From the NCBI GenBank assembly GCA_041649615.1, contig JBAZMT010000003.1:1297-65296 (forward strand): a stretch of DNA of 64,000 bases. Reading direction: 5' to 3'. How positions within the stretch are numbered: position 1 is the stretch's first letter; each line of letters begins with the position of its first letter. This document shows, one piece after another, positions 28,044 through 43,227 of this stretch. Source of the stretch: Parcubacteria group bacterium. GTDB taxonomy: Bacteria > Patescibacteriota > Minisyncoccia > UBA6257 > Colwellbacteraceae. The position numbers and the translations under genes are program-made. Below the pieces are notes generated by a model, which saw nothing but the letters and a program-made list of their open reading frames with translations, did no database searches and was not told the DNA's origin.

Positions 28044-28053
28044 TATCCACACT
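28044..28053 (+). promoter_or_regulatory. TATCCACACT motif, copy 1, 12 nt upstream of the helicase gene ATG
   Basis: Shares the 10-mer core with the copies at 43311 and 57516. Confidence 0.4.
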
Positions 28054-28065
28054 TCACGGGGAACC

Positions 28066-30662: not shown

Positions 30663-32201
30663 ATGAGCAAAGAGCAAGGCTACGCGACACCAGACTTCAA
30701 GATCACGCACGATGTGCTGAACGAGCAAACGATTCTGGCCGCGGCCATTGTCGATCCCAAGGTTCGAGCAGAGCTCGCGTCGAGGGTACGGGCGGAGCAC
30801 TTCCAAGACACAGACCACGCGCTCGCATGGGCTTCGATCTTGCGTGCTACCGCCCAAGGGCATGACCCGTCGCCAACGGCGATCGTTCAGTTGTCGGGTG
30901 GTAAGCTCGACAAGAAATATCTCGAAGACGTAGTTGCGGCGAACCCAAAGGTACCGCGCGACATTCGGTTCCACATCGACGCGCTCCAATGGGACATGAC
31001 GAGGGCGAAGGCCGTGCAAGGGCCGTTGAGCGAATTGCTCAGGGCGTTGCAGGACCCCGGCATGAGCCAGGAACGCGTTCGGGCGCTCGCCAAGCAGATC
31101 CCAATCTCGTTCCAGGGAAGCTCGTCTAGGACGCACTTGCGCGACGGCGCGAAGCTAGTTGCTGACCATCGTGCCGTCTTGCGGCAACGCATGAACGGCA
31201 TCGGGCTCTATCCAACGGGTATCGAAGGCCTTGACCGTTACCCCCCGAACAGCCTCGACGACAACGGCAACGATGTGAGCGGCCAACCCTTGCTCGTCCC
31301 CGGGCTGGAACCAGGCAAGATCACGACGGTGACGGCAATTTCTGGCGGTGGAAAGAGCACCATCGTTGCCAAGCTAGCGTTGAATCAAGCCAGGATGTGC
31401 GCCGAGCGTGAATGCGGGAAGGTGCTCTACGGCGCTTGGGAGATGTCGCCAGCGGATGTTCTCGAGCTGATGGCATGCATCAGCACGGGCATTTCGAGAA
31501 ACCGTGTGAAGACTGGTCAGATCACGGATGCCGAATGGAAGTTGCTTTGCAACACGATGGACGCGATTGCCCAATGGGTGAAGTTCGTCGACATGCCATT
31601 CCACAAGGAACGAGGCGTTCGACACACTCATGACGAAGTGCTCGACGTGATCCATGGTTACATCGCCGACAGTGGGGCGAGCATTGCAATCTTCGATCTG
31701 TGGCGACGCGCCTTCAGACGCATGAAGGACGAGAGCGATGAGCAGGAAGCGCTCTACCGTCAGCAGGCGATAGCCGAAGAGACGAACTGCCATTGCTTGC
31801 TCGTTCAGCAGCAACGCTTGAAAGACATTGAAACCAGACAGAACCCAATGCCGACACGCGAAGGCGTGAAGGGTTCGAGCGCATGGGTCGACGTGAGCGA
31901 TACGATGATCGGCGTTTACTTGCCGGGGCTCATGAAGCGGGTGAGCCGCAACGTCATTCAGTTGCTCGTGCTCAAGCAACGATACGGTCGTTGGCCATTG
32001 ACGATCGAATACCAATGGGACGGTGATATCGTTCATCTGCATAGCGGTCAGCTCGTGTGGGACGTTGCGATCGGTGACGAGAGCAAGGTTCAAAGCGGGC
32101 CGAGTGGGCACAATGGCAAGAAGAAGAAAGACCTGTCGAAGGCGGTCAACGTCGTGCCAGCGTCAAAGCTTCAGAAGGGGAAAGGATCGAAGGCAAAGTG
32201 A
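30663..32201 (+). CDS. dnaB: DnaB-like replicative DNA helicase
   Basis: DnaB-like N-terminal domain (EQTILAAAIVDP); RecA-fold Walker A GLEPGKITTVTAISGGGKST; length 512 aa. Confidence 0.75.
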   Translation: MSKEQGYATPDFKITHDVLNEQTILAAAIVDPKVRAELASRVRAEHFQDTDHALAWASILRATAQGHDPSPTAIVQLSGGKLDKKYLEDVVAANPKVPRDIRFHIDALQWDMTRAKAVQGPLSELLRALQDPGMSQERVRALAKQIPISFQGSSSRTHLRDGAKLVADHRAVLRQRMNGIGLYPTGIEGLDRYPPNSLDDNGNDVSGQPLLVPGLEPGKITTVTAISGGGKSTIVAKLALNQARMCAERECGKVLYGAWEMSPADVLELMACISTGISRNRVKTGQITDAEWKLLCNTMDAIAQWVKFVDMPFHKERGVRHTHDEVLDVIHGYIADSGASIAIFDLWRRAFRRMKDESDEQEALYRQQAIAEETNCHCLLVQQQRLKDIETRQNPMPTREGVKGSSAWVDVSDTMIGVYLPGLMKRVSRNVIQLLVLKQRYGRWPLTIEYQWDGDIVHLHSGQLVWDVAIGDESKVQSGPSGHNGKKKKDLSKAVNVVPASKLQKGKGSKAK

Positions 32202-33253
32202 GCGCGCAGAATCGACAGAGCGCCGATGTGCCAAGGTTGCTTGATGCGTTGGGTATTCGGTACCGAACGCACGGGCACGAGCTCTGGGCGCCATGTCCGC
32301 ATCCAGACCACAAGGAGACGCGCCCGAGTTGGAGCATCTCCCACAACCCACAGAGCCCGGGTAATGGTTCACACCATTGCTTCGGGTGCGCATTCAACGG
32401 GGGGCCCGTAGATCTGGTGATGGCCGTGCGAGGCCTGAGCATGGGTGGCTCGCGCGCATGGATCACGGATAACGGGCTTTGGCTCAAAGGGTCATTGCCG
32501 CTCGCGGTATCGTTCGAGATCACGAAGCTCTTGTCGAACCGTCTTCGCATCCCGAGCAAGTTGCTGAGCGGCCCGCTCAATGCTTGGGTGACGCCCGTTC
32601 GAAAGTACGCCTTGCAACGCGGGCTCACCGACGCGCAATGCCTGCGATGGGACATCTGTTACGCGATCGACGGCGCCATGGGTGGTCGCATCGTGTTCCC
32701 CGTCAAGGACGAGAACGAAGAGTGGCTCGGTTGGCACGCTCGCACGTTCTGCAAACAGGACAAGCGGTACAAGAACGCCAGCGAGGCCGACGGCTACGAC
32801 CCCGGGGCGATCTTTGGGATGCGCCATTGGCCTCCCTACGATGCACGGGCAGGCCTTTCCCTAGTGCTTACCGAGGGCGCGCTGGATGCGCTAGCGTGCG
32901 AACGTGCGGGTGCTAGGTTTCTTGCGGCTATTGGAGGCAGTGAGCCGCACGCAAGGCAACTCCTGAAGCTCCAACAATGGGACCGGATACTCGTTGCCAC
33001 AGATGGAGACCATGCCGGTGACAGAATGTTCGAGACGTTGCGGGGACTACTTGGGAGGAAAGTCGATATTCGAAGGGTGGAGATCCCTCGAGATTGCGAT
33101 GCCGCGGAGCTCACTCGAGATCAGTTGAGAGAGTTGCTATGGCAAGCCGAAGGCTCAGGAAGAAGCCCAAACGAAGCAAGAAGTACAAGCGGAAGAGTGG
33201 TCCGCCGAAGAAGAGTGGTTACCCTGCAAGGAAACCAGCTCACCCAGAAATAA
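32198..33253 (+). CDS. dnaG: DnaG-like DNA primase (CHC2 zinc finger + TOPRIM)
   Basis: CPHPDHKETRPSW...HCFGCAFNG zinc-binding motif; TOPRIM acidic residues (LVLTEGALDALA ... LVATDGDHAGD). Confidence 0.75.
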   Translation: MSAQNRQSADVPRLLDALGIRYRTHGHELWAPCPHPDHKETRPSWSISHNPQSPGNGSHHCFGCAFNGGPVDLVMAVRGLSMGGSRAWITDNGLWLKGSLPLAVSFEITKLLSNRLRIPSKLLSGPLNAWVTPVRKYALQRGLTDAQCLRWDICYAIDGAMGGRIVFPVKDENEEWLGWHARTFCKQDKRYKNASEADGYDPGAIFGMRHWPPYDARAGLSLVLTEGALDALACERAGARFLAAIGGSEPHARQLLKLQQWDRILVATDGDHAGDRMFETLRGLLGRKVDIRRVEIPRDCDAAELTRDQLRELLWQAEGSGRSPNEARSTSGRVVRRRRVVTLQGNQLTQK

Positions 33254-33492
33254 GGGATGATGCGCATAAGTTGATCTTGGCTCGAACGTTGAGGAAGGAC
33301 TTGATTGCAACCGGTGGAGACATCTCGAGAGCGGCACATCGAACGGCGGTATCGAGAAAGGCTGCATACAACATGATCAAGTATTGGGGACTTTGGCCGC
33401 TCGTGAACGAGTGCAGACGCAAGCGCTACGAAGCAACCGAGGTTGATGGCTCCAATCTCATTCAACGAACGCACCTAGCGATGAGAGGTTGA
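33139..33492 (+). CDS. small basic HTH DNA-binding protein
   Basis: K/R-rich N-terminus and a C-terminal HTH-like segment IATGGDISRAAHRTAVSRKAAYNMIKYW. The start is uncertain: it overlaps the primase 3' end, and an alternative TTG start lies near 33270. Confidence 0.4.
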   Translation: MASRRLRKKPKRSKKYKRKSGPPKKSGYPARKPAHPEIRDDAHKLILARTLRKDLIATGGDISRAAHRTAVSRKAAYNMIKYWGLWPLVNECRRKRYEATEVDGSNLIQRTHLAMRG

Positions 33493-33493
33493 G

Positions 33494-33805
33494 ATGGCAC
33501 GTAACGAGACAGAAATTGGATCTGAGATTCGCGCCTACCGTTACGAGGTAGCGATGGAGATGCTTGTTCCTCTGCTGAAGAAGCATGGTGGCAATACGGT
33601 TCACGCTGCGAAGGACGCTGACGTGCATCACGCAACTCTCAAGCGTTGGATTGTGGCGCTCGATGACGCCGGGCAACCCATCCGCGAAGCGTTGGATGAG
33701 ATGCGTGGGGTGACCGCTCGCAAGCTGGCCAGGGCCAAGGCCACGAAGAAGAAAGGGCCCAAACGGGCGGTGAAGAGCGCGGGCAGAGCCCACCAATCGG
33801 CTTGA
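33494..33805 (+). CDS. Fis-type HTH DNA-binding protein
   Basis: GNTVHAAKDADVHHATLKRWI is a classical helix-turn-helix; basic C-terminal tail. Confidence 0.5.
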   Translation: MARNETEIGSEIRAYRYEVAMEMLVPLLKKHGGNTVHAAKDADVHHATLKRWIVALDDAGQPIREALDEMRGVTARKLARAKATKKKGPKRAVKSAGRAHQSA

Positions 33806-33848
33806 TTCTACCGAGTTACAGAATTCTCGATCTCGGCTGAGGAATTCG

Positions 33849-33875
33849 TTGGCGCGCTAGCGCATGGCATGCGAA
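33849..33875 (+). promoter_or_regulatory. TTGGCGCGCTAGCGCATGGCATGCGA conserved intergenic element, copy 1 (contains the 10-bp palindrome GCGCTAGCGC)
   Basis: 15-mer GCGCGCTAGCGCATG identical to the copy at 35828; upstream of the gene starting at 33926. Confidence 0.5.
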
Positions 33876-33925
33876 GGTTGATCCGTCGAAGGGAACAACC
33901 CACGGCAAGAAAGGTAGAATCCAGA

Positions 33926-34582
33926 ATGACCGACCTATCCAACACTAGCGCCAATGCAACGACCACCGAGACCGCCAAAGCCGCCAAGGCCAAGATCGAC
34001 AAGAAGCAAGCCACGGCCGCGCTCAGCAACCTGACGCAGGCGAAGCGGGTCATCGAAGGCAAGGCAGTGACCAAGAAAGCCCAGAAGCGCGAGGCAGTGA
34101 TTGCTCGACGCGAAGAGGAGAAGAAGGCTGCCCTGGTATTGCTCGACACGGGATCGACGAAGAAGTGGTCAGCGCGGTTTGCCCTAGTGCGCGCCGTCAC
34201 CGCGATGAAGATGGGTGCCAGCGCGGAAGAGTTGCGCGGTTGCAAAGCCCTCATGACCGTGACCGATTGGCCCGCGCTGGAACAACCCGTGCGTGACTAC
34301 GCGGTAGCCGTTCAGGCGGATGCGGACAAGATTGCGAGCATCCTTTGCACGAAGCCCGCGGCCCCTGCCCCTGCCCCTGCCCCTACCCCTGCCCCTGCCC
34401 CGGTTGCAGTGGCCCCCAAGGCGGAGCCCAAGCCCGAGCCCAAGGCGGAGTCGGTCAAGCCCCCGACCCCTATTCGCCCGCCCATGACGGCGGTCAAGCC
34501 GCTCGGTACCAAGCCGGCAACGGCTGCTCCCGCGGCAAAGCCTGCCAAGCCCCCCGCAAAGCCGGTCAGTCGCGCCTCCTAA
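33926..34582 (+). CDS. hypothetical protein with (PA)n / KP-rich C-terminus
   Basis: Start placed downstream of the conserved GCGCGCTAGCGCATG promoter-like motif. PAAPAPAPAPTPAPAP low-complexity region. Confidence 0.5.
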   Translation: MTDLSNTSANATTTETAKAAKAKIDKKQATAALSNLTQAKRVIEGKAVTKKAQKREAVIARREEEKKAALVLLDTGSTKKWSARFALVRAVTAMKMGASAEELRGCKALMTVTDWPALEQPVRDYAVAVQADADKIASILCTKPAAPAPAPAPTPAPAPVAVAPKAEPKPEPKAESVKPPTPIRPPMTAVKPLGTKPATAAPAAKPAKPPAKPVSRAS

Positions 34583-34585
34583 ACG

Positions 34586-34597
34586 CTCACCGGTGAG
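34586..34597. promoter_or_regulatory. palindrome CTCACCGGTGAG, copy placed immediately between a stop codon and a terminator hairpin
   Basis: Exact 12-mer, extended as CTCACCGGTGAGAGG as at 27426 and 48477. Confidence 0.45.
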
Positions 34598-34602
34598 AGG
34601 TT

Positions 34603-34639
34603 CCCCGTGGTCTAGCGATGGGCCACGGGGTTCTTCTTG
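34603..34639 (+). terminator. rho-independent terminator-like hairpin (CCCCGTGG ... CCACGGGG + TTCTTCTTG)
   Basis: 8-bp GC-rich stem, 12-nt loop, T-rich tail; downstream of the stop at 34582. Confidence 0.5.
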
Positions 34640-34655
34640 AAGAAAGGACAGTTCG

Positions 34656-35759
34656 ATGCTCAACGAAACAGCGACAGGTAAGTTCAGTTCGGCGCGCAAG
34701 GCAGGAGAGGCGTTCTTAGGTGTGGAGGTGGCTTGGAACATGGGGGAGCAGGCGACGGACCTGGCGATTCCCCGTGGACAGTTCGAAGCGTTGTTCATGG
34801 CTGTCACCAACCGGAAGGAGTTCTTCAAGAAGATCACGGCCGAGGACAGCCTCACCGTCGCCGCGAAGCTCGGCTGGAGCCTGCAACTGAAGATCGATCC
34901 CCGCACGGTCACAGTCAAGCAACTGAGCAAGCCCGATAAGGACACACCCCTAGCGTTCGGCGTTTACTACCGGGTCAGCCTTGAAGGCGAGCGCGACAAG
35001 TGGGAGCTCGGGGCACGGGTTCGCGTGCAAGACGGGCAGGTCGTTGTCTGCCCGCCAATGGACGAGACGGAGTTCCCGAGCGAGTCGGCGAAGCGTTGGG
35101 GTGAAGCGATGGCAACCTACGCCAACGAGTGCTTCGGTACCGCGTTCAACTACCACATCAGTCACGCGTTGCTCGATCTCGGTGACGAGCTTGGATGGGT
35201 CAGTCGCCGAGTGAGCGGCGGAGTGTACTTTCTACCGGGCGACTCCGGTGAGAAGTTCACTCAGGTGCTCGACGGCCTTGCCGAGTTGACCAACGAGAAG
35301 CCGGTGAAGTTCGAAGGATCGGCGATCCCTCAGTACGCTGACCCGCGAACGCTCTCGACGTGGAAGCGCCGTACTGAGCAGACGTTCGAAGGCGAGCTCG
35401 ACCAACTGAACGCGCGTCTCGCCGACATGGTTTCGAGCGACAAGACACGCGAGTCGACGTTCGATACCAAGGTCTTCGAATGCGCCGAGCTCCTTCTGAA
35501 GGCGGACCGTTACGCGAACATCCTTCAGGAGCGGCTTGGGCCGCTCAAGGAGAAGATTGACGAAGTGAGGGCCAAGTTCGCCGACGCGAAAGCTGAGTTG
35601 CAGGCGAGCAAGGGCAAGGCCGACAAGGCGTTCAACGACGTCGCCAAAGCCGCCAAGGGCGCCAAGGCTGCCCCCACAGTGGTCGCGCAGCCAGCCAAGC
35701 CGGCGGGTCCCGTAAAGGTCCGCACCAAAGCCGAGCTCATGGCCCTTTTCGCGATCTGA
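34656..35759 (+). CDS. hypothetical protein
   Basis: 367-aa ORF, ends before the terminator hairpin at 35782. Confidence 0.55.
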   Translation: MLNETATGKFSSARKAGEAFLGVEVAWNMGEQATDLAIPRGQFEALFMAVTNRKEFFKKITAEDSLTVAAKLGWSLQLKIDPRTVTVKQLSKPDKDTPLAFGVYYRVSLEGERDKWELGARVRVQDGQVVVCPPMDETEFPSESAKRWGEAMATYANECFGTAFNYHISHALLDLGDELGWVSRRVSGGVYFLPGDSGEKFTQVLDGLAELTNEKPVKFEGSAIPQYADPRTLSTWKRRTEQTFEGELDQLNARLADMVSSDKTRESTFDTKVFECAELLLKADRYANILQERLGPLKEKIDEVRAKFADAKAELQASKGKADKAFNDVAKAAKGAKAAPTVVAQPAKPAGPVKVRTKAELMALFAI

Positions 35760-35781
35760 CGGCCCCAAGCCCAAGCCTAAA

Positions 35782-35825
35782 ACGGGCCAGCGTGCGACCT
35801 CCGCGCTGGCCCGTTGATGATTTCT
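35782..35825 (+). terminator. rho-independent terminator-like hairpin (ACGGGCCAGCG ... CGCTGGCCCGT + TGATGATTTCTATT)
   Basis: 11-bp perfect stem after the stop at 35759. Confidence 0.55.
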
Positions 35826-35850
35826 ATTGCGCGCTAGCGCATGCCGTGCG
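35826..35850 (+). promoter_or_regulatory. TTGCGCGCTAGCGCATGCCGTGCGA conserved intergenic element, copy 2
   Basis: Directly after the terminator at 35782-35825 and about 50 nt upstream of the MoxR ATPase ATG. Confidence 0.5.
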
Positions 35851-35898
35851 ACTGTGATTTCGTTGTTTGGTTGCCCCAACCGGGGCAGGGAGATCAGC

Positions 35899-37161
35899 AT
35901 GGAAGAGATCGGTAGAGTCGGTCGAAGGCGTCGCCGCCAAGAGACCAAGGAAGCCAACCCCATCGTCGCCCCAGAAGAAGCGGGTGTTGTCGACGGAGGG
36001 ATCGTTGGCGAGTTGCCAGTCGTGACGCGGTTGAACAATGCCGCAAAGCAACTGAACGGGTTCTTCGCTGAACGCGAAGCGGCTGTTCGATGCATGATGA
36101 TCGCGTTGCTGACGGGAATGAACTACTTGCTCGTCGGGCCGCGAGGCACTGCGAAGACGGTGCTCAGCAAGGCGATGATGAAGCACGTTGACGGGTCGAA
36201 GCACTTTTCGACGCTGCTCGGTAGCTTCTCGACGTTGAACGATCTGATTGGTCGAATCGACTTGGCCGCCCTGCAACGCGGTGAGGAGAAGCGGAAGATC
36301 GAGGGCAAGTTGCTTGACTGCGACACCGCGTTCATTGACGAGGCCTTGAAGGGTAGCGATGGCGTTCTGAACAGCCTGCTCGGGCTGCTCAGTGACGAGC
36401 GCGACTTCGACGGCGTTCGGGCGCCCCTTTGGAGCGTTGGAAGCGCGACGAACTGGCCAGAAGTGAACCGCCGTACTGACCGCATCGCCGCGCTCTACGA
36501 CCGGTTCCATATCAAGGTTCCGGTGACCGCGGTGAAGACGCGAGCGGGCCGAGTGCAAGTGCTCAGGGCGAGCCGAGTCGTTGGCACCTACACGCCGACC
36601 GAGGACTCGATTGTGACCCTCGACGAGCTACGTGATGCCGCGCTGGAAGTAGCGAATATCCAGATCGACGCTTCAATCGAAGACCTACTTTGCAGCATCC
36701 AAGAACGTTGCATCAAGGATGAGATCGACATCAGCGATAGAAAGCTCGGCCAGTGGCAACGAGGCATTCAGGCGAATGCATGGTTGTCGGGGCGAACCGA
36801 AGTGTCCGTCGAAGACATGGACATCTTGCCCTTCATGGCATGGGACAACGAGAAGGACATTGCCAAGGCGACAGCGATCATCAGTAGTTGTGACCTTGAG
36901 CTTGCGCAAGGGCTCATCAAGCGGGTTGACGAAGCGCGGCAAGCCTACGCGAACATCAAGCGCACGGGTTTGACAGCGGCTAACGCGAGTCAGGTGCTCG
37001 AGAAGATCATCAGAACCGCGGAAAGCGTCTCGGGCGACATGAAGCGCTTCAAGCTTCGCGAGTCCAGCAGGAACGACGTCGCTCGTGCGGTGAAGAGCCT
37101 GCAACGTGACTTCGAAGAGCTCTACTCGAAGTTCCAACCGGCATTAGATGGGGAAGGGTGA
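35899..37161 (+). CDS. MoxR-family AAA+ ATPase (CobS/RavA-like)
   Basis: Walker A LLVGPRGTAKT, Walker B CDTAFIDEA; AAA_3/AAA_5-like. Start placed downstream of the conserved promoter-like motif at 35826. Confidence 0.7.
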   Translation: MEEIGRVGRRRRRQETKEANPIVAPEEAGVVDGGIVGELPVVTRLNNAAKQLNGFFAEREAAVRCMMIALLTGMNYLLVGPRGTAKTVLSKAMMKHVDGSKHFSTLLGSFSTLNDLIGRIDLAALQRGEEKRKIEGKLLDCDTAFIDEALKGSDGVLNSLLGLLSDERDFDGVRAPLWSVGSATNWPEVNRRTDRIAALYDRFHIKVPVTAVKTRAGRVQVLRASRVVGTYTPTEDSIVTLDELRDAALEVANIQIDASIEDLLCSIQERCIKDEIDISDRKLGQWQRGIQANAWLSGRTEVSVEDMDILPFMAWDNEKDIAKATAIISSCDLELAQGLIKRVDEARQAYANIKRTGLTAANASQVLEKIIRTAESVSGDMKRFKLRESSRNDVARAVKSLQRDFEELYSKFQPALDGEG

Positions 37162-38500
37162 TCCAATGTTCGACTCGATGTTCAGCTACGATGTTCTTTC
37201 GTTTGACGAAGCCGTTCAACGTCATGGCATGATCCGTGATTGCCTTGCGAAGTTGACGAAGGGGCATACGCCCAATCTACCTAACGACAAGGCGAAGCAG
37301 ATTGTTGGATACCTGCAAGACGCGTGGAACGAATGCATTGGGGCGGGCTCGCCCGACAGTGCAATCGCAGCGGCTCTTCGAGGTATCGTGCCGCTCGACT
37401 ACGTTCCACTTCTCCGCATGCGGAGCGGCATCCCGGCGTCGTACCTGATTGCACGGCTCACGGACGTGCTCATTGACGCTGTTCTGAAGGGCGTAGACAT
37501 CGACGACGACATGCTCTTGCGCGGGCTAGTTGCGGAAGCGTTCAAGGCCTTCGAAGAGCGTCGCAAGAGTGCCGACACGTTGGAGGAAGGGTTCGGCTTC
37601 GATCGGTCTGATGCATGGGCGCAGATGCGCCAAGTGGAAGACCGTCAGGGCGAGGTTTCGCATCTGATGAAGCAGATCGCAAACCTCGCCGGGCGTATGT
37701 ATAAGAGCTTCGAGTACAATGCGATCCCGAGCAAGTGCAAGGACCCGCAAGAAGTCGAAGGTATCGAAACGGGCGGTGACCTCGACAGAATGCTCGACGA
37801 CGAGAAGGCGAGCATCGGTATTGATCCCGACGTTGCCGTTCGAGTTAGCGAAGACCGCGCCAATCAGTTCCGCATGGCAGGCGAGTCAACGAAGAGCCGC
37901 GGCCCGCTCGTAGTTGCAGTTGATGAGTCTGGTTCGATGCACGACCATCGTGAGATCTGGGCCAAGGCCTGCTCAGTGGCGTTGATTCGAGTTGCCCTGC
38001 AAGAGGGGCGAACCGTGCGCATGGTGCACTTCTCGACGGTGACGGATGTTCACGATGTGCGCCCGAACGAGCCGAACGACATGCTCCTCGTCGCCGAAAG
38101 CCATTGCGGTGGAGGCACCGATATCGATGTCGCGATGGAAGTGGCGTTGGAGCAGATCGGAAACCTAGAGAAGGACGGCAAAGAAGGCGCCGACATCGTG
38201 TTCATCACCGACGGCTTGGACAGCTACTCGAAGAGCCACTTCGACAAGATGGTTCAGATGGGCGTTCAGCTTTGGACCGTCGCCATCGACGTGGACATCA
38301 AGGCCGTGTCGGAGCAGCAGAAGCGCAACCGCGGAGCAGCGGGTGCCAGCGGATGGCTCTACGACTACGCTCGGGCGTACGTCCACATCAGCGACTCGAC
38401 TATTCGCGGCAACGGGGCAGGAGCCATCAACGCGGCCCTGCAATTGCGCGAAGCCGCGCTGGACAACGTGACGCGTGAAGAAGAGGCCAGTCGTGGCTGA
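37148..38500 (+). CDS. von Willebrand factor A (VWA) domain protein, partner of the MoxR ATPase (CobT/ViaA-like)
   Basis: C-terminal VWA with MIDAS motif VVAVDESGSM ... TDGLDS. Confidence 0.65.
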   Translation: MGKGDPMFDSMFSYDVLSFDEAVQRHGMIRDCLAKLTKGHTPNLPNDKAKQIVGYLQDAWNECIGAGSPDSAIAAALRGIVPLDYVPLLRMRSGIPASYLIARLTDVLIDAVLKGVDIDDDMLLRGLVAEAFKAFEERRKSADTLEEGFGFDRSDAWAQMRQVEDRQGEVSHLMKQIANLAGRMYKSFEYNAIPSKCKDPQEVEGIETGGDLDRMLDDEKASIGIDPDVAVRVSEDRANQFRMAGESTKSRGPLVVAVDESGSMHDHREIWAKACSVALIRVALQEGRTVRMVHFSTVTDVHDVRPNEPNDMLLVAESHCGGGTDIDVAMEVALEQIGNLEKDGKEGADIVFITDGLDSYSKSHFDKMVQMGVQLWTVAIDVDIKAVSEQQKRNRGAAGASGWLYDYARAYVHISDSTIRGNGAGAINAALQLREAALDNVTREEEASRG

Positions 38501-39317
38501 AGGCCTCATCAGGCAAGGAATTAGGGGACTCAGCGAGGGGTGGACTCTCGCTGAGTTCGAGCAGTATGCCGGCGGAGAAGTCCGCCGGTTGGCGAACAAG
38601 ATGCTTCGTCAGCAACGCTACATCCCTCTCGAGCTTGACGACTTGGTTCAGGTCATCATGTTCACGATCTGGGATCGTTGCATTCACTGGGATGGCCGTG
38701 GCTCAGTCGAGGGCTACGTGATGTTCAAGGTTCGGTGTCAAGTCGTTCGTGAGATGATGTGGGCGAAGGGGCTCGCCCGCGACAGTCACAACCAATGGGT
38801 CGGGGCCGCGTTGATACCGGTGGGCGATGACTTCTCGTTCGAGCCTGAAGTGTTCGAAGGTGTGACACCTGAAGATCTGGCAGATGCCAAACGGAGCGTC
38901 GATGAGTTCGTCGAACTAGCGTGCAAGACTGAGCGTGAAACGGTGCTAGTGATGACGGCCTTGAAGGAAGGAACTCAGCACGGGGCGAAGGTCCTTTACG
39001 AGCAAGAGAACGTCGAAGCGCTCGGGCTAGTCCGGGACATCGAGTGGATTCAAAAGGCAATCACCCGCGCATTGAAGCGGGCGAGGAAAGAATACTATGG
39101 CGACGAAACGTACGATGAAGCCGAAGGTGGAGAAGATCGTAGAGGGTGTGAGGCTGAAGGAAGTCAAGGAGGACATTGCGCGCAAAGCCTACAGACTCGC
39201 GAAGAAGGCTGCGAGCAAGATGTCCCTTCCACCGATGGAGTTACCAGACGAAAGCGGACTCGATCTCGAAGGCGTAGTTCGCAACCTAGTGCTCTGGTAT
39301 CGTGTTGCGACGCCTGA
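38475..39317 (+). CDS. sigma-70 family (ECF-like) sigma factor
   Basis: Region-2-like LDDLVQVIMFTIWDRC...YVMFKVRCQVVREMMW and a region-4-like HTH near the C-terminus. The 3' ~220 nt overlap the next gene out of frame, so the true end is uncertain. Confidence 0.45.
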   Translation: MKKRPVVAEGLIRQGIRGLSEGWTLAEFEQYAGGEVRRLANKMLRQQRYIPLELDDLVQVIMFTIWDRCIHWDGRGSVEGYVMFKVRCQVVREMMWAKGLARDSHNQWVGAALIPVGDDFSFEPEVFEGVTPEDLADAKRSVDEFVELACKTERETVLVMTALKEGTQHGAKVLYEQENVEALGLVRDIEWIQKAITRALKRARKEYYGDETYDEAEGGEDRRGCEAEGSQGGHCAQSLQTREEGCEQDVPSTDGVTRRKRTRSRRRSSQPSALVSCCDA

Positions 39318-40620
39318 ACGAGATCTGTGTGATTGCACGACGTGCGGTGGAGACAGCGATTCGCGTTTGGATGCGTGCCCGTTCTGCGGGGACAGCGAGA
39401 CCGAGGCAGACGCCCCCGAAGAGCTAGCCAAGCCGGCCGCGCCAGAAAAGCCCGTCAAGGCGGAGAAGCCCGCCAAGGCGGAGAAGCCTGCCAAAGAGGA
39501 GAAGCCTGCCAAGCCTGTCAAGGCGGAGAAGCCTGCCAAGTCCGCTAAGGAGGAGAAGCCTGCCAAGGCAGAGAAGGCCGAGCCCAAAGAGGAACCGAAG
39601 CCAACGCCGAAGCCAGAGGCTCCAGCGAGGCGAAAGGTGAAGCCAGCCGTGACGCTCGACCCTCCGCTGGAAACGAATGCCCCGGTCGCATCGAAGGTGA
39701 TTGCGAAGACGGAGGATGGTACCGAGGTCATCGACAAGGATGCAGCCAAGGTCGATTCGCTCGACGACGCGGTTCAGAAGATTGCTGAGCTGAAGAACCG
39801 TTCGGCGAAGGGCATCTGGGACATGGGGGTAGAGATTCAGCGCATCTTCGATCAGAAGCTTTGGCGCTTGCGCGTGACAGAGAAGGGTCATGCAACGTAC
39901 AAGACGTTCGCTCAGTTCTGCAAAGCAGAGCTCGAGATGGGGTACTCGCACGCGAACCGGTTGATGCAGGTAGCGTCAACGTTCCCGAAGGAGATGATGG
40001 AGAGAATTGGGATTTCGAAGTGCTCCATCATGCTGCATTTGCCACCCGAAGCCCGTGCGAAGTTGCTCGAGGGAGCAGAGAACAAGAGCAAGTCGACGCT
40101 CAGCAAAGAAGCACGTGAGCTGAAGGAAGGCGATGCACCGAAGATACCTCGAACGGCTTTGACCGTTGCGATGGCACCCGGTGTCGTCGAGATCCCGATG
40201 ATGGCTCGACCGAAGGACGGTATTCGAAAGAATGGCGAAGTGCCAGCGGTGTCGCTCGATGACGAGCCGGCTTGCATTGAGAAGCTCCCGAACAACGTTC
40301 AGGTGAGGTACATCATCTTGAGAGATCGCGAAGGCAAGTTGTTCCTTCGCATCGATCGCCGTCGAATTGCAGACGGTAGGCTTTTCACGGACGAGCCTGA
40401 AAACCAGGACGCCGAAGAAGAAAGGGACGAGTTGGATATGGACGTGCTCGACGAAGTTGAAGGTGACGAAGAGGATACCGACGAGAACGAAGACGAAGAG
40501 GATACCGACGCCGAAGAAGTCGACGACGAAGACGAGGACGACGACGAAGACGAGGACGACGACGAAGACGAGGACGACGACGAAGACGAGGACGAGGACG
40601 ACGAAGAGGAAGAGAAGTAG
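39097..40620 (+). CDS. DNA-binding protein: Zn-ribbon + (KPAKAEKPAK)n lysine repeats + HTH-like core + ~65-residue poly-Asp/Glu C-terminal tail
   Basis: CDCTTCGG...CPFCGD; AKP/EKP repeats; IAELKNRSAKGIWDMGVEIQRIF core; terminal DEDEDDDEDEDDDEDEDDDEDEDEDDEEEEK encoded by GAC/GAA/GAG codon repeats. Confidence 0.55.
   Translation: MATKRTMKPKVEKIVEGVRLKEVKEDIARKAYRLAKKAASKMSLPPMELPDESGLDLEGVVRNLVLWYRVATPERDLCDCTTCGGDSDSRLDACPFCGDSETEADAPEELAKPAAPEKPVKAEKPAKAEKPAKEEKPAKPVKAEKPAKSAKEEKPAKAEKAEPKEEPKPTPKPEAPARRKVKPAVTLDPPLETNAPVASKVIAKTEDGTEVIDKDAAKVDSLDDAVQKIAELKNRSAKGIWDMGVEIQRIFDQKLWRLRVTEKGHATYKTFAQFCKAELEMGYSHANRLMQVASTFPKEMMERIGISKCSIMLHLPPEARAKLLEGAENKSKSTLSKEARELKEGDAPKIPRTALTVAMAPGVVEIPMMARPKDGIRKNGEVPAVSLDDEPACIEKLPNNVQVRYIILRDREGKLFLRIDRRRIADGRLFTDEPENQDAEEERDELDMDVLDEVEGDEEDTDENEDEEDTDAEEVDDEDEDDDEDEDDDEDEDDDEDEDEDDEEEEK
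40435..40617 (+). repeat. GAC/GAA/GAG codon-repeat tract encoding a poly-Asp/Glu tail
   Basis: gacgacgaagacgaggacgac... spanning about 180 nt. Confidence 0.8.
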
Positions 40621-40623
40621 ATC

Positions 40624-43227
40624 ATGAGGCGTTTAGTAACCAACGGGCAGAAGGAACGTCAGGTGCGGATCGATGCAATTGTCGATCTCCCAAACCAAAC
40701 AACAATCGCACCTGATGTTCCTCCTGTCCGTGGGTTGCTGAACGTCGCTCAGAACAAGGACAACATCATCATCGTTGAGCGCAATGGCGATGAGGTCATT
40801 GTGCGAGAACGGGCCGCTGAATTCTCGTGCTTCATTAGGAACGACATCGACGATGAAACGAAGCGGAAGATTCGAAACCATCGAGCCGTCAAAGGCATGC
40901 TCGAAGAGGGCGATTGGATTCGGATCTTGTGGAAGAGTAGCTTCGAAAGAGAAGATCTCTGCAAGAAGCTCGAAGCGGACGGCGTGCGAACATACGAAGG
41001 AGATGTCGGCGCCGTCCGCCGCTTTTTGACAGATCACAAGATCCCGCACGTTACGCCGAGGCTTTGCTACTACGACATTGAAACGGACAGTCGCGTGCCC
41101 GTGCGGCTTGCAGCCGAAGGCAAAGCTCGAATCCTATGTTGGTCTGTTATCGGTGCTGACGGCAAGGTGACCGTCGGCGTGCTTGATGATGACACTGACA
41201 CGGCCGAACGAGCGTTGCTGCAACGGCTCATCAAGACGCTTGAACAATACGATCAAGTCGCTTCGTGGAACGGGGACAACTTCGACTTCCCCGCAACGAA
41301 GGCGCGATGCGCCCAACGACGCATCTCAGTGAACTTCGACCGATGGCTATGGCTCGACCAGATGGATCTCTTCATCCGGATGAACACCATGGCCGCGGAG
41401 TCCGGAGAAGAGAAGGCGAGCTACTCGTTGCAGGCCATCTCGATGGCATTGCTCGGCGTTGGCAAGGACGACATCGACGCGAGCAGGACCTACGAGTATT
41501 GGGCAGCCGGTGGTGAAGAGCGCCAGAAGCTCGTTCGATACAACGTCACCGACGTGAAGCGACAGCGCGGTATCGAAGAGAAGACGGGCTACATCGCGCT
41601 CCTTCAGACGTTGGCGGAAACGACCAACGTGTTCCCCGACTCGAGGGGCATGAACCCAACGATCCAGGCCGAAGGCTTCTTGCTTCGTCTTGGCGCTGAT
41701 AGGAACTATCGGTTCCCAAGCAACTTCGAACGCGGGCACTCGGACAGGTTCAAGGGCGCCTTCGTGATGGAGCCGCAAGGAAGCGGCATCATCAAGAACG
41801 TTCACGTCGGCGACTTCGCGTCTCTGTACCCGAGCATCATCGTCACGTGGAACATGAGCCCAGAGACGCTGATTGCGGATGAAGCATTGGCGCAAGCGAG
41901 CGCGCTGGACGAACCGTATTGCACGGCCCCAATCACGGGCACGTGCTTCCTAACCAGAGAAGAAGGCATTCTTCCGCACGCCGTCAAAGAGGTGATGCGG
42001 TTGCGGAAGTATTGGAACGATCTGAAGGCGTCGTATCCGCCAGGTTCAGACGAATGGGTGAGCGCGAATCGCAAGGCGACGGCATACAAGATCGCAGCGA
42101 ACTCGTTCTACGGTGTCATCGGTAGCCCGATGAGCCGCTTCTTCAGTCGAGATGTAGCTGAAGCGGTGACGCAGGCAGGAGCATGGCTCATTCAAGAGAC
42201 GATGGCGGCCGCCGAAGCGCGGACGATGCATTCGATCTATGGAGACACCGATTCGCTCTTCATTGGTAACTGTACTCGCACGCAATTTGAGGTCTTCGTC
42301 GAATGGTGCAATCACGACTTCTACCCGGTGAAGCTCAAGGACCTTGGTTGCAAGGAGAATCTGATCAAGCTTGCCTACGAGAAGGAATTCGAACGCATCA
42401 TCTTCATCTCAGCGAAGAAGTATGTTGGGCGCTACGTTCACTTCAAAGGCACGATGGCAGACGCGTCGAGCAAGCCCGAAGTCAAAGGCCTCGAGTACAA
42501 GCGCGGCGACAGCATCAGGGTCGCGCGTAACTTCCAAGCCGAGGTGATCGATCTACTGGTAGGCATGGAGAACGGTGGTCACGAGGACACCGAAACGTTC
42601 GATGAGGTCATTGCACGTTGGCAGGCTTCGATCTTGAACGACCCGTTGACGATAGACGACATCTCGATGGCGAAGCGCTTGAACAAGCCGCTCAACGAGT
42701 ATGCCCGCAAGCGCACGAAGGACGGCGGTTGGGCGAAGCAACTTCCGCACATCGAACTCGCACGCAAGATGATTGAACGCGGTGAGGACGTGCGCGAAGG
42801 CACGAAGGTCACGTACTTCGTCTATGACGCCAGTCACAAGGGTGACGTCGAATACCGGCTCAAGGAAGAGTGGGACGGTACCTTCGATCGGTACGAATGC
42901 TGGGAGAAGCTTACTTGGCCACCGACGCAACGGTTGCTCGAAGCGGCGTTCCCCGGGCACCCTTGGGACGACCAATACGGGTCGGTCCGCCCCAAGACCC
43001 CACGAGCTCCGCGGGCTACCAAGGCCAAGGCCCCACCGAAGGGCGCCTACACCCAAGACATGACGGAGGAGTTTTCCCAGGCTCAGCAGGAGGTCGCCAG
43101 CGGCCTAGGCAAGCGAGGCACGGCCAAGGCCCCACCCGTGCGGGGCTCCGCGCTGGACCCCTCGCCTATGACGACGCCAGCCGGGCCAGGTCGGAGACGC
43201 CGTGTCTCGTCGGCTGCTTCCTCCTGA
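40624..43227 (+). CDS. family B DNA polymerase with 3'-5' proofreading exonuclease
   Basis: Exo I YYDIETD, Exo II WNGDNFDFP, Exo III YNVTDV; PolB motif A DFASLYPSI and motif C YGDTDSLFI. Confidence 0.85.
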   Translation: MRRLVTNGQKERQVRIDAIVDLPNQTTIAPDVPPVRGLLNVAQNKDNIIIVERNGDEVIVRERAAEFSCFIRNDIDDETKRKIRNHRAVKGMLEEGDWIRILWKSSFEREDLCKKLEADGVRTYEGDVGAVRRFLTDHKIPHVTPRLCYYDIETDSRVPVRLAAEGKARILCWSVIGADGKVTVGVLDDDTDTAERALLQRLIKTLEQYDQVASWNGDNFDFPATKARCAQRRISVNFDRWLWLDQMDLFIRMNTMAAESGEEKASYSLQAISMALLGVGKDDIDASRTYEYWAAGGEERQKLVRYNVTDVKRQRGIEEKTGYIALLQTLAETTNVFPDSRGMNPTIQAEGFLLRLGADRNYRFPSNFERGHSDRFKGAFVMEPQGSGIIKNVHVGDFASLYPSIIVTWNMSPETLIADEALAQASALDEPYCTAPITGTCFLTREEGILPHAVKEVMRLRKYWNDLKASYPPGSDEWVSANRKATAYKIAANSFYGVIGSPMSRFFSRDVAEAVTQAGAWLIQETMAAAEARTMHSIYGDTDSLFIGNCTRTQFEVFVEWCNHDFYPVKLKDLGCKENLIKLAYEKEFERIIFISAKKYVGRYVHFKGTMADASSKPEVKGLEYKRGDSIRVARNFQAEVIDLLVGMENGGHEDTETFDEVIARWQASILNDPLTIDDISMAKRLNKPLNEYARKRTKDGGWAKQLPHIELARKMIERGEDVREGTKVTYFVYDASHKGDVEYRLKEEWDGTFDRYECWEKLTWPPTQRLLEAAFPGHPWDDQYGSVRPKTPRAPRATKAKAPPKGAYTQDMTEEFSQAQQEVASGLGKRGTAKAPPVRGSALDPSPMTTPAGPGRRRRVSSAASS

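What the first reader, a model, noticed from the sequence alone, without database searches (positions are those of the whole stretch)
35826..38500. Phage-encoded MoxR AAA+ ATPase / VWA-domain pair (CobS/CobT- or RavA/ViaA-like) next to a phage sigma factor
35899-37161 has GPRGTAKT Walker A and FIDE Walker B of MoxR-class AAA+ proteins. The overlapping downstream gene ends in a canonical VWA domain with a DxSGS MIDAS motif. Such pairs act as chaperone or metal-insertion machines (CobST, NorQD, CbbQO, RavA-ViaA). CobS/CobT-like pairs recur in diverse phages without a known role. Here the pair has its own promoter-like element and terminator and sits immediately upstream of an ECF-like sigma factor, so it may be an early-expressed host-takeover or assembly-chaperone module.
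Basis: partly seen in the sequence, partly recalled or inferred. Interest (0 to 1): 0.55.

Follow-up and report, generated by a model that had tools for sequence, protein, structure and literature searches.

The report
Phage MoxR ATPase–VWA chaperone pair
This phage encodes a known type of two-protein, ATP-driven remodelling machine (a MoxR ATPase and its VWA adaptor); it belongs to a three-gene module shared by phages and large plasmids and sits among DNA-replication genes, but its target is unknown.

Summary
Gene 35899-37161 encodes a RavA-like MoxR AAA+ ATPase (Pfam bpMoxR 1.5e-28, RavA lid 5.6e-12, PDB RavA 1.7e-22). Gene 37166-38500 encodes a VWA protein whose MIDAS residues (DxSxS…T…D) are invariant in 33 homologues. 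The pair is RavA/ViaA-like, not CobS/CobT-like.

Three corrections:
- The VWA gene probably starts at 37166, so it does not overlap the ATPase gene.
- The strong hairpin lies upstream of the ATPase gene, not after the pair.
- The promoter-like element is not sigma-70-like. It is a conserved palindrome, GCGCTAGCGC, found only in this region.

New context:
- Every related contig long enough to show it has the same gene order: helicase, DnaB, DnaG, DUF6744, MoxR, VWA, sigma-like, zinc-ribbon protein, PolB, RecA.
- DUF6744 is a third partner. It accompanies homologous MoxR and VWA genes in Moorella phage MTATph1, Bacillus phage 0305phi8-36 and 6 of 6 inspected large plasmids, some of them beside dnaN, primase or SSB genes.

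Best reading: a MoxR–VWA(–DUF6744) remodeller of mobile elements that acts on a replication-linked or establishment-linked target. The identity is firm; the target is inferred. It is a new member of a known kind, of moderate interest.

The parts
33853..33878 (+). First copy of the conserved cis element (palindrome GCGCTAGCGC at 33854-33863), upstream of the unknown gene in ORF 33869-34582
   Evidence: The 26-nt pattern CGCGCTAGCGCATGNCNTGCGANNGT occurs twice in 64 kb, with 0 expected. The same palindrome lies at equivalent intergenic positions in 8 related contigs.
34603..34630 (+). Terminator-like hairpin upstream of the DUF6744 gene
   Evidence: 12-bp stem followed by a T-rich tail; -25.4 kcal/mol, z = -4.5.
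34656..35759 (+). DUF6744-family protein (367 aa), the conserved third partner of the pair
   Evidence: Pfam PF20529 at 28.8 bits against a cut-off of 27. Full-length alignment with MTATph1 CDS0119, itself DUF6744 at 5.6e-61. Always immediately upstream of MoxR in the lineage. Adjacent to MoxR and VWA on 6 of 6 inspected plasmids. AF2 model pLDDT 85.8, with no PDB fold match.
35781..35815 (+). Strong hairpin (terminator-like) between the DUF6744 and MoxR genes
   Evidence: 14-bp stem with 10 GC pairs; -28.7 kcal/mol, z = -5.4. A hairpin at the same position in L014 and L008 keeps the stem despite differing arm bases.
35827..35855 (+). Promoter/operator-like element TTGC-GCGCTAGCGC-ATGCCGTGCGACTGT, 68 nt upstream of the MoxR start codon
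   Evidence: Second of only two exact copies in the window, with 0.13 expected. 20 non-redundant copies in 8 contigs, all 53-80 nt upstream of the genes for an unknown ~200-aa protein, DUF6744, MoxR or VWA.
35871..35888 (+). Small hairpin abutting the Shine-Dalgarno sequence (GGGAG, 35888-35892)
   Evidence: Fold of -17.1 kcal/mol, z = -2.5. An equivalent stem with changed bases is present in L014 and L008. Weak evidence.
35899..37161 (+). RavA-like MoxR AAA+ ATPase, 420 aa: Walker A at 36136-36159, Walker B at 36328-36342, and an N-terminal RRRRR cluster
   Evidence: Invariant in 26 homologues: G80, G83, K86, D147, E148, N185, R202, R281. Also.
37166..38500 (+). VWA/MIDAS adaptor protein, 444 aa (450 aa if it starts at 37148): N-terminal helical domain, linker, C-terminal VWA domain. 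MIDAS DESGS at 37922-37936, T318, D349.
   Evidence: VWA_CoxE 4.7e-8 and ViaA model 3.3e-16. MIDAS residues invariant in 33 sequences. AF2 pLDDT 79. Best Foldseek matches are NorD of the NorQD complex and the Rea1/MDN1 MIDAS domains; 0305phi8-36-like and ATV ORF892 proteins match in the viral structure library BFVD.
38475..39317 (+). Sigma-70 region-2-like protein. Its start (GTG 38475 or 38493) overlaps the VWA stop codon, and its 3' end overlaps the next ORF.
   Evidence: Sigma70_r2 E=8e-4, below threshold. A profile of five orthologues hits ECF SigK at 3e-5, and also FliA and SigH. Orthologues in L004, L009 and L010 pass the Pfam threshold.
39097..40620 (+). Conserved zinc-ribbon protein with PAKxEK repeats and a polyacidic tail, lying between the sigma-like gene and PolB (function unknown)
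   Evidence: Alignment A5 has invariant C80, C83, C94 and C97. No significant Pfam or PDB match. Tandem repeats.

Best explanation
Genes 35899-37161 and 37166-38500 encode a RavA/ViaA-type MoxR AAA+ ATPase and its VWA adaptor.

Proposed mechanism, by analogy with RavA-ViaA, NorQ-NorD, CbbQ-CbbO and Rea1 (inferred):
- The ATPase forms a ring.
- The VWA protein docks on the ring and grips a target through its metal-ion-dependent adhesion site (MIDAS). A Mg2+ ion there is completed by an acidic residue of the target.
- ATP hydrolysis pulls on or remodels the target complex.

Shown here:
- All catalytic and MIDAS residues are intact and conserved.
- The pair forms a conserved three-gene module with the DUF6744 protein (34656-35759). 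The module occurs on phages and on large plasmids.
- In this myovirus lineage the module has a fixed place between the primase gene and a sigma-like gene, a zinc-ribbon gene and PolB. It is preceded by a lineage-specific palindromic promoter/operator element and is probably co-transcribed with the downstream replication genes.

Inferred: the target is a protein complex that mobile elements need for replicating or establishing their DNA in a new cell. Candidates are the replisome or sliding clamp, or DUF6744 itself as substrate or co-adaptor. The target is not a metallo-enzyme for cobalamin synthesis and not a virion part.
For: Identity:
- Profile and structure matches.
- Catalytic residues invariant in 26 homologues and MIDAS residues in 33.
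- The VWA model's best matches are VWA partners of MoxR or dynein-like ATPases: NorD and Rea1 MIDAS.

Coupling:
- A 4-nt gap separates MoxR and VWA. The VWA stop codon overlaps the sigma-like start.
- No convincing terminator-like site on the + strand (5-bp stems only) from 35900 to about 50 kb.

Fixed place in the replication block:
- The order ResIII helicase, DnaB, DnaG, DUF6744, MoxR, VWA, sigma-like, zinc-ribbon protein, PolB, RecA is kept in the window and in L004, L006, L008, L009, L010, L020 and L025. MoxR identity to the window protein ranges from 36% to 88% across the lineage.
- A remote relative (L011) has PolIII-alpha, DnaB, DnaG, MoxR, VWA.
- Phage CL131 has MoxR, VWA, dnaN.

Ternary module on mobile elements:
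- DUF6744 accompanies the pair in MTATph1 and related Moorellaceae contigs (probably prophages), even with IS elements inserted between the genes.
- In 0305phi8-36 it is present 8.5 kb away.
- It is adjacent to the pair on 6 of 6 inspected plasmids from Bacillota, Actinomycetota and Cyanobacteriota. Their ATPase and VWA proteins match the family HMMs at 1e-39 to 1e-96. dnaN, a CHC2 primase-type zinc-finger gene, SSB or a RepB primase are near the module on four of the six.

Dedicated cis element.
Against: - No experiment and no interaction prediction was possible, so the target is unknown.
- Gene neighbourhood shows co-inheritance and co-expression, not physical action on the replisome.
- Two plasmids (Streptomyces, Nocardia pNF1) show no replication genes next to the module. 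In pNF1 it lies beside a conjugative coupling protein, which fits an 'establishment/anti-defence' role as well as a replication role.
- The one functional datum for a phage MoxR ATPase is an anti-defence phenotype (Bas54, preprint 10.1101/2025.11.20.689424). That protein is not detectably related to this one.
- DUF6744 has no recognisable fold relative.
- The clamp-binding-like tail of DUF6744 is lineage-specific and only a resemblance.
Confidence: 0.5

Rival explanations
1. Anti-defence or establishment factor. The MoxR-VWA-DUF6744 module dismantles or sequesters a host immune or stress complex when the mobile element enters a cell. Its place among replication genes only reflects early or middle expression.
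For: - The module is shared by phages and plasmids, including the mobilizable pNF1, where it lies beside a type IV coupling protein.
- Neighbours on plasmids include large SNF2/DEAD helicases and DUF6094. In phage CL131 the neighbour is an LPD29 'polyvalent protein' domain, typical of invasion-phase genes.
- A Vequintavirinae phage MoxR ATPase was required to overcome a predicted defence system.
Against: - The Bas54 ATPase is not a detectable relative.
- No PADLOC or anti-defence profile hit.
- The module is invariant in position and present in every member of the lineage examined, unlike typical variable anti-defence islands.
- dnaN, a CHC2 primase-type gene, SSB or a RepB primase recur near the module.
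Confidence: 0.25
2. Virion or tail assembly chaperone. This has been shown or proposed for ATV p618/p892 and proposed for the MoxR-vWA-peptidase pairs of group 2.2 jumbo phages.
For: - ATV p618 and SMV MoxR ATPases, and ATV ORF892, are detectable relatives.
- Literature: PMC4124505 and PMC7824862.
Against: - The pair lies about 15 kb from the tail and baseplate genes (6448-18049), inside the replication block.
- Close homologues sit on plasmids, at least one of them a MOBP/type IV coupling-protein plasmid (pNF1).
- There is no peptidase fusion.
Confidence: 0.08
3. RavA-ViaA-like action on host membrane or respiratory complexes (host metabolic takeover).
For: RavA and ViaA are the closest characterised homologues. 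RavA-ViaA act on Nuo and Frd complexes and on the inner membrane (PMC3893208, PMC10585395, PMC9489729).
Against: - Scores are far below the RavA and ViaA equivalog cut-offs (84 against 681 bits; 60 against 500 bits).
- At 420 aa the protein is too short to hold RavA's LARA domain.
- The match to the ViaA model covers only the linker and VWA domain, not the N-terminal domain.
- The genomic context is DNA metabolism.
Confidence: 0.07
4. CobS/CobT-like or other metal-insertion machine (cobaltochelatase, NorQD- or CoxDE-type metallo-centre maturation).
For: Generic MoxR-VWA architecture. The VWA_CoxE profile is the best Pfam VWA hit, and NorD is the best structural match. Hardies et al. annotated the 0305phi8-36 homologues as a 'metalloprotein chaperonin'.
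Against: - No CobT, CobS_N or CbbQ_C hits.
- No relation to phage cobS-type genes at E<=5.
- No metallo-enzyme gene is conserved next to the module in any of the roughly 20 loci examined.
Confidence: 0.05

Closest known systems
Bacillus phage 0305phi8-36 gp66 (MoxR-like ATPase) and gp63 (VWA); Moorella phage MTATph1 CDS0115 and CDS0114
   Same: Same ATPase and VWA subfamilies: tblastn 3e-22 to 3e-24 and 2e-17 to 8e-24; family HMMs 1e-56 to 1e-84. Both genomes also carry DUF6744. The genes lie among DNA-metabolism genes.
   Different: Only 24-37% identity. No sigma-like, zinc-ribbon or PolB neighbours, and no GCGCTAGCGC element. They lack the N-terminal Arg cluster seen in the window lineage. 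In 0305phi8-36, DUF6744 is 8.5 kb away.
E. coli RavA-ViaA
   Same: The AAA+ module and RavA-type lid align over residues 44-320 (E=1.7e-22). The ViaA model matches the linker and VWA domain (3.3e-16). In both cases the ATPase and VWA genes are adjacent and in the same order.
   Different: Not orthologues (84 against 681 bits; 60 against 500 bits). No room for the LARA domain. The VWA N-terminal domain is different. There is an extra partner (DUF6744). The pair is phage/plasmid-borne and lies in a replication context.
NorQ-NorD, CbbQ-CbbO and Rea1(MDN1)-MIDAS systems
   Same: Same working principle: a MoxR or dynein-like AAA+ ring plus a MIDAS-bearing VWA domain that grips an acidic residue of the client. 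NorD and the Rea1 MIDAS domains are the best structural matches of the VWA model.
   Different: A different ATPase subfamily (no CbbQ_C hit) and different, unknown clients.
ATV p618/p892 (archaeal virus MoxR-VWA)
   Same: A viral MoxR-VWA pair, detectable by sequence (4e-6) and by structure (ORF892, 4e-9). ATPase activity is stimulated by the VWA protein (PMC4124505).
   Different: The ATV proteins are much larger, p618 is a major virion component, and both are linked to tail growth. Here the context is replication, and homologues occur on plasmids.
bpMoxR of the MoxR-vWA-beta-propeller and VMAP ternary conflict systems (Kaur et al. 2020, PMC7159879)
   Same: This is the best-scoring Pfam model for the ATPase (PF20030, 1.5e-28). 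Both have a ternary organisation of MoxR, vWA and a third protein.
   Different: No beta-propeller, VMAP or effector domains. The third protein is DUF6744. The module is carried by mobile elements, not by host defence loci. No PADLOC hit.
Phage CobS/CobT pairs (cyanophages, rhizobiophages, V5-like phages), including the Bas54 MoxR ATPase
   Same: A phage-borne AAA_5-type ATPase paired with a VWA protein of unknown role.
   Different: No detectable sequence relation and no CobT or CobS profile hits.

Membership tests
MoxR family of AAA+ ATPases | Walker A GxxGxxK[ST] and Walker B hhhhDE | tested here: met
   GPRGTAKT and AFIDE are present. G80, G83, K86, D147 and E148 are invariant in 26 homologues.
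MoxR family of AAA+ ATPases | Sensor 1 Asn, Arg finger and sensor 2 Arg at the positions seen in RavA | tested here: met
   N185 (SATNWPE), R202 (YDRF) and R281 (SDRK) are invariant. They align with the RavA motifs SNELPE, YDRM and SDRR.
MoxR family of AAA+ ATPases | Match to MoxR-specific profiles above the curated cut-offs, and not to McrB or dynein profiles | tested here: met
   bpMoxR 99.7 against 27 bits; AAA_lid_8 45.7 against 22.8; AAA_5 43.7 against 22. AAA_7 (dynein) is below its cut-off. RavA is the only PDB sequence match.
MoxR family of AAA+ ATPases | Hexameric ring and ATPase activity stimulated by the VWA partner | not testable with these tools
   Needs biochemistry or a multimer prediction; only monomer prediction was available.
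RavA (equivalog) | Full-length orthology, including the triple-helical and LARA domains | tested here: not met
   NF010054 scores 84 bits against a cut-off of 681. The alignment stops at residue 321. Only about 100 residues remain, too few for both domains.
VWA domain with MIDAS (MoxR partner class; ViaA, NorD, CbbO, CoxE) | MIDAS residues DxSxS…T…D | tested here: met
   D253, S255, S257, T318 and D349 are invariant in 33 homologues.
VWA domain with MIDAS (MoxR partner class; ViaA, NorD, CbbO, CoxE) | VWA (Rossmann-like alpha/beta) fold | tested here: met
   AF2 model pLDDT about 90 over residues 245-410. Foldseek probability 1.0 for NorD, Rea1 MIDAS and integrin I domains.
VWA domain with MIDAS (MoxR partner class; ViaA, NorD, CbbO, CoxE) | Encoded directly next to, and on the same strand as, the MoxR gene | tested here: met
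   4-nt gap. The adjacency is kept in all loci of the lineage and in distant phage and plasmid relatives.
ViaA (equivalog) | Full-length orthology, including the N-terminal domain | tested here: not met
   NF008230 scores 59.6 bits against a cut-off of 500. Only residues 200-358 match.
CobS/CobT cobaltochelatase pair | CobS_N / CobT / CobT_C profile matches | tested here: not met
   No such hits in Pfam or NCBIfam. No tblastn relation to phage cobS-type genes at E<=5.
MoxR-vWA-beta-propeller / VMAP ternary conflict systems | A third component with a beta-propeller or VMAP domain, plus effector domains | tested here: not met
   The neighbours are DUF6744 and a sigma-like protein, and no such domains were found. 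No PADLOC hit.
DUF6744 (PF20529), upstream gene | Profile match above the gathering score and full-length alignment to bona fide members | tested here: met
   28.8 bits against a cut-off of 27, over the C-terminal half only. Full-length alignment with MTATph1 CDS0119 (5.6e-61 to the Pfam model). A family HMM recovers plasmid proteins annotated as DUF6744 at 1e-11 to 1e-22.
Sigma-70 / ECF sigma factors, downstream gene | Region 2 and region 4 domains | tested here: inconclusive
   Region 2 scores 19.5 bits against a cut-off of 24 for this protein. Orthologues pass the threshold, and the orthologue profile hits ECF SigK at 3e-5. Region 4 was not detected beyond one weak full-length alignment (6pfj, E=0.018).

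The most novel reading that the evidence does not exclude
DUF6744-MoxR-VWA is an undescribed ternary module of mobile genetic elements (tailed phages and large plasmids of at least three bacterial phyla). It acts on the DNA-replication machinery of the invaded cell, for example by recruiting, unloading or remodelling the sliding clamp or replisome for the element's own polymerase. In this phage lineage it is switched on through a dedicated palindromic promoter/operator (GCGCTAGCGC).
Probability: 0.25. Interest if true: 0.7.

Novelty: new member of a known kind. Interest (0 to 1): 0.4.

Why it matters
MoxR-VWA pairs have been annotated in phages since 2007, but no role has been shown for them in bacteriophages.

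This locus adds nothing new about the pair itself. It does supply three handles that make the question testable:
1. A conserved third partner (DUF6744), which no paper in the searched library mentions.
2. The pair's fixed position inside a replication block in a widespread uncultured myovirus lineage (soil and marine contigs), together with its presence on plasmids. Both argue against the usual 'assembly chaperone' label.
3. A sharply defined cis element that marks the regulon.

If the module acts on the replisome, or as an establishment factor, it would be a general device of mobile elements.

Tried and rejected
- The DUF6744 model (pLDDT 85.8) has no PDB fold relative; the best hit is E=0.039.
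- Profile searches of the DUF6744 family and the zinc-ribbon protein family against PDB and Pfam found nothing significant.
- PADLOC found no hit for any of the five proteins.
- The sigma-70 promoter scan found none.
It found only one IMG/VR contig, no relatives of the zinc-ribbon protein in viral contigs, and no relative in GTDB species genomes apart from two remote Chloroflexota MoxR genes. The host therefore remains unknown.
- The word-indexed search for DUF6744 homologues returned only 14 proteins.
- The 'Campylobacter phage A11a/A18a' and Salmonella/E. coli 'phage' hits were rejected as phage examples. They lie next to gidA, gidB and atpB, or are ravA-viaA on host contigs.
- The idea that CL131 gp148, or genes near L011 or L017, are DUF6744 was tested and rejected.
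- No paper mentions DUF6744.


Full report
**Observation check**

ORF 35899-37161 (+) encodes a 420-aa protein. Its ATG is preceded by a GGGAG Shine-Dalgarno sequence. It contains GPRGTAKT (36136-36159) and AFIDE (36328-36342).

The next ORF (37148/37166-38500) ends in a VWA domain. The domain has DESGS (37922-37936), the Thr of GGGTD and the Asp of FITDG.

These are not chance motifs:
- The ATPase hits Pfam bpMoxR (PF20030, 1.5e-28, 99.7 bits against a cut-off of 27, covering model positions 2-201 of 205). It also hits the RavA-type lid AAA_lid_8 (5.6e-12) and AAA_5 (3.6e-11).
- The ATPase hits the NCBIfam RavA model at 9e-24. RavA is the only PDB sequence match (1.7e-22, residues 44-320).
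- The VWA protein hits VWA_CoxE (4.7e-8), VWA_2 and the NCBIfam ViaA model (3.3e-16, residues 200-358).

**Conservation and family size**
- In 26 ATPase homologues, the invariant residues include G80, G83 and K86 (Walker A) and D147 and E148 (Walker B). N185, R202 and R281 are also invariant; they are the counterparts of the RavA sensor 1, Arg finger and sensor 2.
- In 33 VWA homologues, D253, S255, S257, T318 and D349 (the full MIDAS) are invariant.
- The ATPase subfamily is sizeable. In the 1.84-billion-protein representative library, 4,838 representatives match at E<=1e-3 and 157 at E<=1e-30. Most are 370-430 aa long.

**Which kind of MoxR pair**
- It is RavA/ViaA-like but not orthologous to them. 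Scores are far below the equivalog cut-offs (84 against 681 bits; 60 against 500 bits).
- At 420 aa the protein cannot hold RavA's LARA domain. Only the linker and VWA part of ViaA is matched.
- It is not CobS/CobT-like. There are no CobT, CobS_N or CbbQ_C hits. tblastn at E<=5 against 50,697 phage records returned only 31 records, and none is a cobS-type phage gene.
- The AF2 model of the VWA protein (pLDDT 79) shows three parts. They are a confident N-terminal helical domain (residues 10-136), a poorly predicted linker, and the VWA domain.
- The best PDB structural matches are NorD in the NorQD complex and the Rea1/MDN1 MIDAS domains. These are VWA domains that work with MoxR or dynein-type rings.
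- The best viral matches are A7KV72 (an unnamed 553-residue entry, the same length as 0305phi8-36 gp63) and, at rank 5, ATV ORF892.

**Gene boundaries and signals**
- Homologues of the VWA protein begin with MF…. The likely start is therefore ATG 37166, 4 nt after the ATPase TGA stop codon, with GGGGAAGGG as the ribosome-binding site. The 14-nt overlap is probably not real.
- The VWA stop codon (38498-38500) overlaps the start of the sigma-like ORF (GTG 38475 or 38493).
- No sigma-70-type promoter was found in 33500-41000.
- The strong hairpin at 35781-35815 (-28.7 kcal/mol, z = -5.4) lies upstream of the ATPase gene. A second hairpin (34603-34630) precedes the DUF6744 gene.
- No convincing + strand terminator follows the pair as far as about 50 kb. 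The unit that starts upstream of the ATPase gene therefore probably runs through the VWA, sigma-like, zinc-ribbon and PolB genes.

**A dedicated cis element**
- Just after the hairpin lies TTGC-GCGCTAGCGC-ATGCCGTGCGACTGT (35827-35855).
- The 26-nt pattern occurs exactly twice in the 64-kb window (33853 and 35830), with 0 expected. The bare 10-bp palindrome is expected 0.13 times.
- The intergenic architecture is conserved in contigs L014 (84% ATPase identity) and L008 (74%). It consists of a hairpin whose stem persists although the arm bases differ, the element, and a small hairpin abutting the Shine-Dalgarno sequence.
- Across the lineage I found 20 non-redundant copies of GCGCTAGCGC in 8 contigs, including members with only 36-37% ATPase identity.
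- Every copy is intergenic, usually just after a hairpin plus T-run. Each lies 53-80 nt upstream of the start codon of one of four genes: an unknown ~200-aa protein, DUF6744, MoxR or VWA.
- Two branches (L006, L010) lack it.
What binds the palindrome is unknown.

**Context in the window**

The window is a myovirus genome segment with all genes on one strand:
- tail sheath and baseplate genes (6448-18049);
- a peptidoglycan-binding lysis protein (26509-27342);
- a replication/recombination block.

The order of the replication/recombination block is:
- ResIII helicase (27877-29595);
- DnaB (30663-32201);
- DnaG-type primase (32198-33253);
- small ORFs;
- DUF6744 (34656-35759);
- MoxR;
- VWA;
- sigma-like protein;
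- zinc-ribbon protein (39097-40620);
- PolB (40624-43227);
- RecA (46645-47856);
- SbcD-like and SbcC-like proteins;
- radical-SAM proteins;
- ParB_N;
- a PDDEXK nuclease.

**Conserved synteny**
- The order ResIII, DnaB, DnaG, DUF6744, MoxR, VWA, sigma-like, zinc-ribbon protein, PolB (then RecA) is identical in every related contig long enough to show it. These come from soil and other metagenomes, two TARA ocean contigs of 83-88 kb, and a 95.6-kb contig. ATPase identity ranges from 36% to 88%.
- The sigma-like ORF that the gene caller missed in L008 is present (hmmsearch 6e-34).
- A very distant relative (L011) has PolIII-alpha, DnaB, DnaG, MoxR, VWA … ParB … RecA.
- Aphanizomenon phage CL131 has an LPD29 protein, MoxR, VWA and dnaN.

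**A third partner**
- The upstream protein is a divergent member of Pfam DUF6744. It aligns over its full length with Moorella phage MTATph1 CDS0119, which matches the Pfam model at 5.6e-61 and lies just upstream of that phage's MoxR and VWA genes.
- Related Moorellaceae contigs (probably prophages) keep DUF6744 … MoxR … VWA even with IS605, PemK and Imm70 insertions between the genes.
- Bacillus phage 0305phi8-36 also has a DUF6744 homologue (ORF046, 2e-22), 8.5 kb from gp63/gp66.
- tblastn of DUF6744 against PLSDB found 21 plasmids of about 97-264 kb among the 20 listed. They come from Brevibacillus, Alicyclobacillus, Streptomyces, Nocardia, Rubrobacter, Pseudanabaena and Subdoligranulum.
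- In all six plasmids inspected, DUF6744 is adjacent to an 'AAA family ATPase' and a VWA (or 'hypothetical') protein. These match my family HMMs at 1e-56 to 1e-96 and 1e-39 to 1e-65.
- Neighbours on those plasmids include dnaN (immediately upstream in Alicyclobacillus, nearby in Brevibacillus), a CHC2 primase-type zinc-finger gene, SSB, a RepB primase, large DEAD/SNF2 helicases and DUF6094. In Nocardia pNF1 the neighbour is a type IV coupling protein.
- The DUF6744 model (pLDDT 85.8) consists of alpha/beta domains followed by a long helical hairpin. It has no PDB fold relative.
- No paper in the searched library mentions DUF6744.

**Mechanism**

Shown:
- an intact MoxR ATPase;
- an intact MIDAS-VWA partner;
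- tight genetic coupling between the two;
- a conserved third gene;
- a fixed position in the replication block;
- a dedicated cis element.

Inferred from established knowledge of RavA-ViaA, NorQD, CbbQO and Rea1:
- The ATPase forms a ring.
- The VWA protein docks on the ring and binds an acidic residue of a client through the MIDAS Mg2+.
- ATP hydrolysis remodels the client.

Inferred from context only: the client belongs to the machinery a mobile element needs in order to replicate or establish its DNA. Candidates are the sliding clamp or replisome, or DUF6744 acting as substrate or co-adaptor.

I put about 0.95 on the identity and working principle. I put about 0.35-0.4 on a replication-linked client.

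**Rival explanations**
- Anti-defence or establishment role (0.25). It fits the phage-plus-plasmid distribution, the neighbours typical of polyvalent proteins, and one preprint in which a V5-like phage MoxR ATPase is needed against a predicted defence system. That protein is unrelated by sequence. The module here is an invariant core gene set, not a variable island.
- Virion assembly, as in ATV p618/p892 and as proposed for group 2.2 jumbo phages. This is disfavoured by the position of the genes and by their presence on plasmids.
- RavA-like action on respiratory complexes, and metal-centre insertion. Neither has any contextual support.

**Comparison and novelty**

Phage MoxR-VWA pairs of this same subfamily were annotated in 0305phi8-36 in 2007 (PMC2147016) and in CL131. 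PHROGs already holds both families (phrog_19600 at 2.7e-40; phrog_24053 at 1e-25). The pair is therefore a new member of a known kind.

What appears undescribed is the following:
- the DUF6744-MoxR-VWA ternary module across phages and plasmids;
- its constant placement between primase and polymerase in this lineage;
- the GCGCTAGCGC regulon element.

These raise the interest from low to moderate.

Noticed in passing
window 33854-33863 and 35831-35840; L004, L008, L009, L014, L019, L020, L022, L024 and L025 at equivalent sites: An exact 10-bp palindrome, GCGCTAGCGC (with TTG upstream and AT downstream), is conserved across phages whose proteins are only about 36% identical. It is always intergenic and lies upstream of four genes between the primase and sigma-like genes. 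It is a likely promoter/operator of a small regulon. The protein that binds it is unknown.
   Followed up: partly
window 38475-39317 versus 39097-40620; also L008 12470-13294, L020 and L025: The sigma-like ORF is about 70 codons longer than in other lineage members (203-211 aa). It overlaps the start of the zinc-ribbon gene by about 220 nt in another reading frame. The same overlap is present in at least three related contigs, so it may be a genuine overlapping extension rather than an error.
   Followed up: partly
window 35899-35960 (MoxR residues 1-43): An N-terminal cluster of 3-6 Arg/Lys residues (here RRRRR), followed by an acidic variable linker, is present in 19 of 26 homologues, all of the PolB-linked lineage. 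The clearly remote homologues in the alignment (e.g. Paenibacillus P0029; P0030, P0032, P0034) lack it. RavA aligns only from residue 44 onward. It could bind nucleic acid or the polyacidic tail of the neighbouring zinc-ribbon protein.
   Followed up: partly
window 35700-35759 (DUF6744 C-terminus); L008, L006, L029: After a Pro/Ala-rich linker, the DUF6744 proteins of this lineage end in …ELMALFAI, …LDQLFAI or …LDALFEG. A Pseudanabaena plasmid homologue ends in …DNLFDLGF. These resemble beta-clamp-binding or SSB-tip-like peptides. Firmicute and actinobacterial homologues lack the tail. This is a resemblance only.
   Followed up: no
window 39097-40620: A conserved 300-510-aa protein between the sigma-like gene and PolB. 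It has a CxxC…CxxC zinc ribbon, imperfect tandem PAKxEK repeats (39448-39580) and a roughly 45-residue Asp/Glu tail (40465-40614). No family assignment was found. It may be a DNA-binding or replication-initiation protein.
   Followed up: partly
window 33094-33492 and 33494-33805: Two small ORFs just upstream of the first palindrome copy contain helix-turn-helix-like stretches. The corresponding genes in L010 have weak or faint HTH_8 hits. They are candidate binders of the palindrome. Pfam found nothing for 33494-33805 at E<=0.01.
   Followed up: no
L017 (MG065691.1, 'Campylobacter phage A11a', UNVERIFIED), locus positions 9896-19828: The MoxR/VWA hit in this 'phage' record lies next to gidA, gidB and the ATP synthase A chain gene. 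This stretch is therefore host chromosome, not phage. The Salmonella and E. coli 'phage' fragments hit in the same search are ravA-viaA.
   Followed up: yes
window 24922-25734, 52667-53422, 54349-55881 and 49587-52670: Other cargo of the phage: a papain-like (Peptidase_C1) protein next to the lysis region, two radical-SAM proteins, and an SbcD/SbcC-like pair followed by ParB_N and a PDDEXK nuclease.
   Followed up: no
window 34320-34450 (inside ORF 33869-34582): A Pro-Ala/Pro-Lys low-complexity tract encoded by short tandem repeats (GCCCCT x 6.8). It lies in the unknown protein whose gene carries the other copy of the palindromic element.
   Followed up: no
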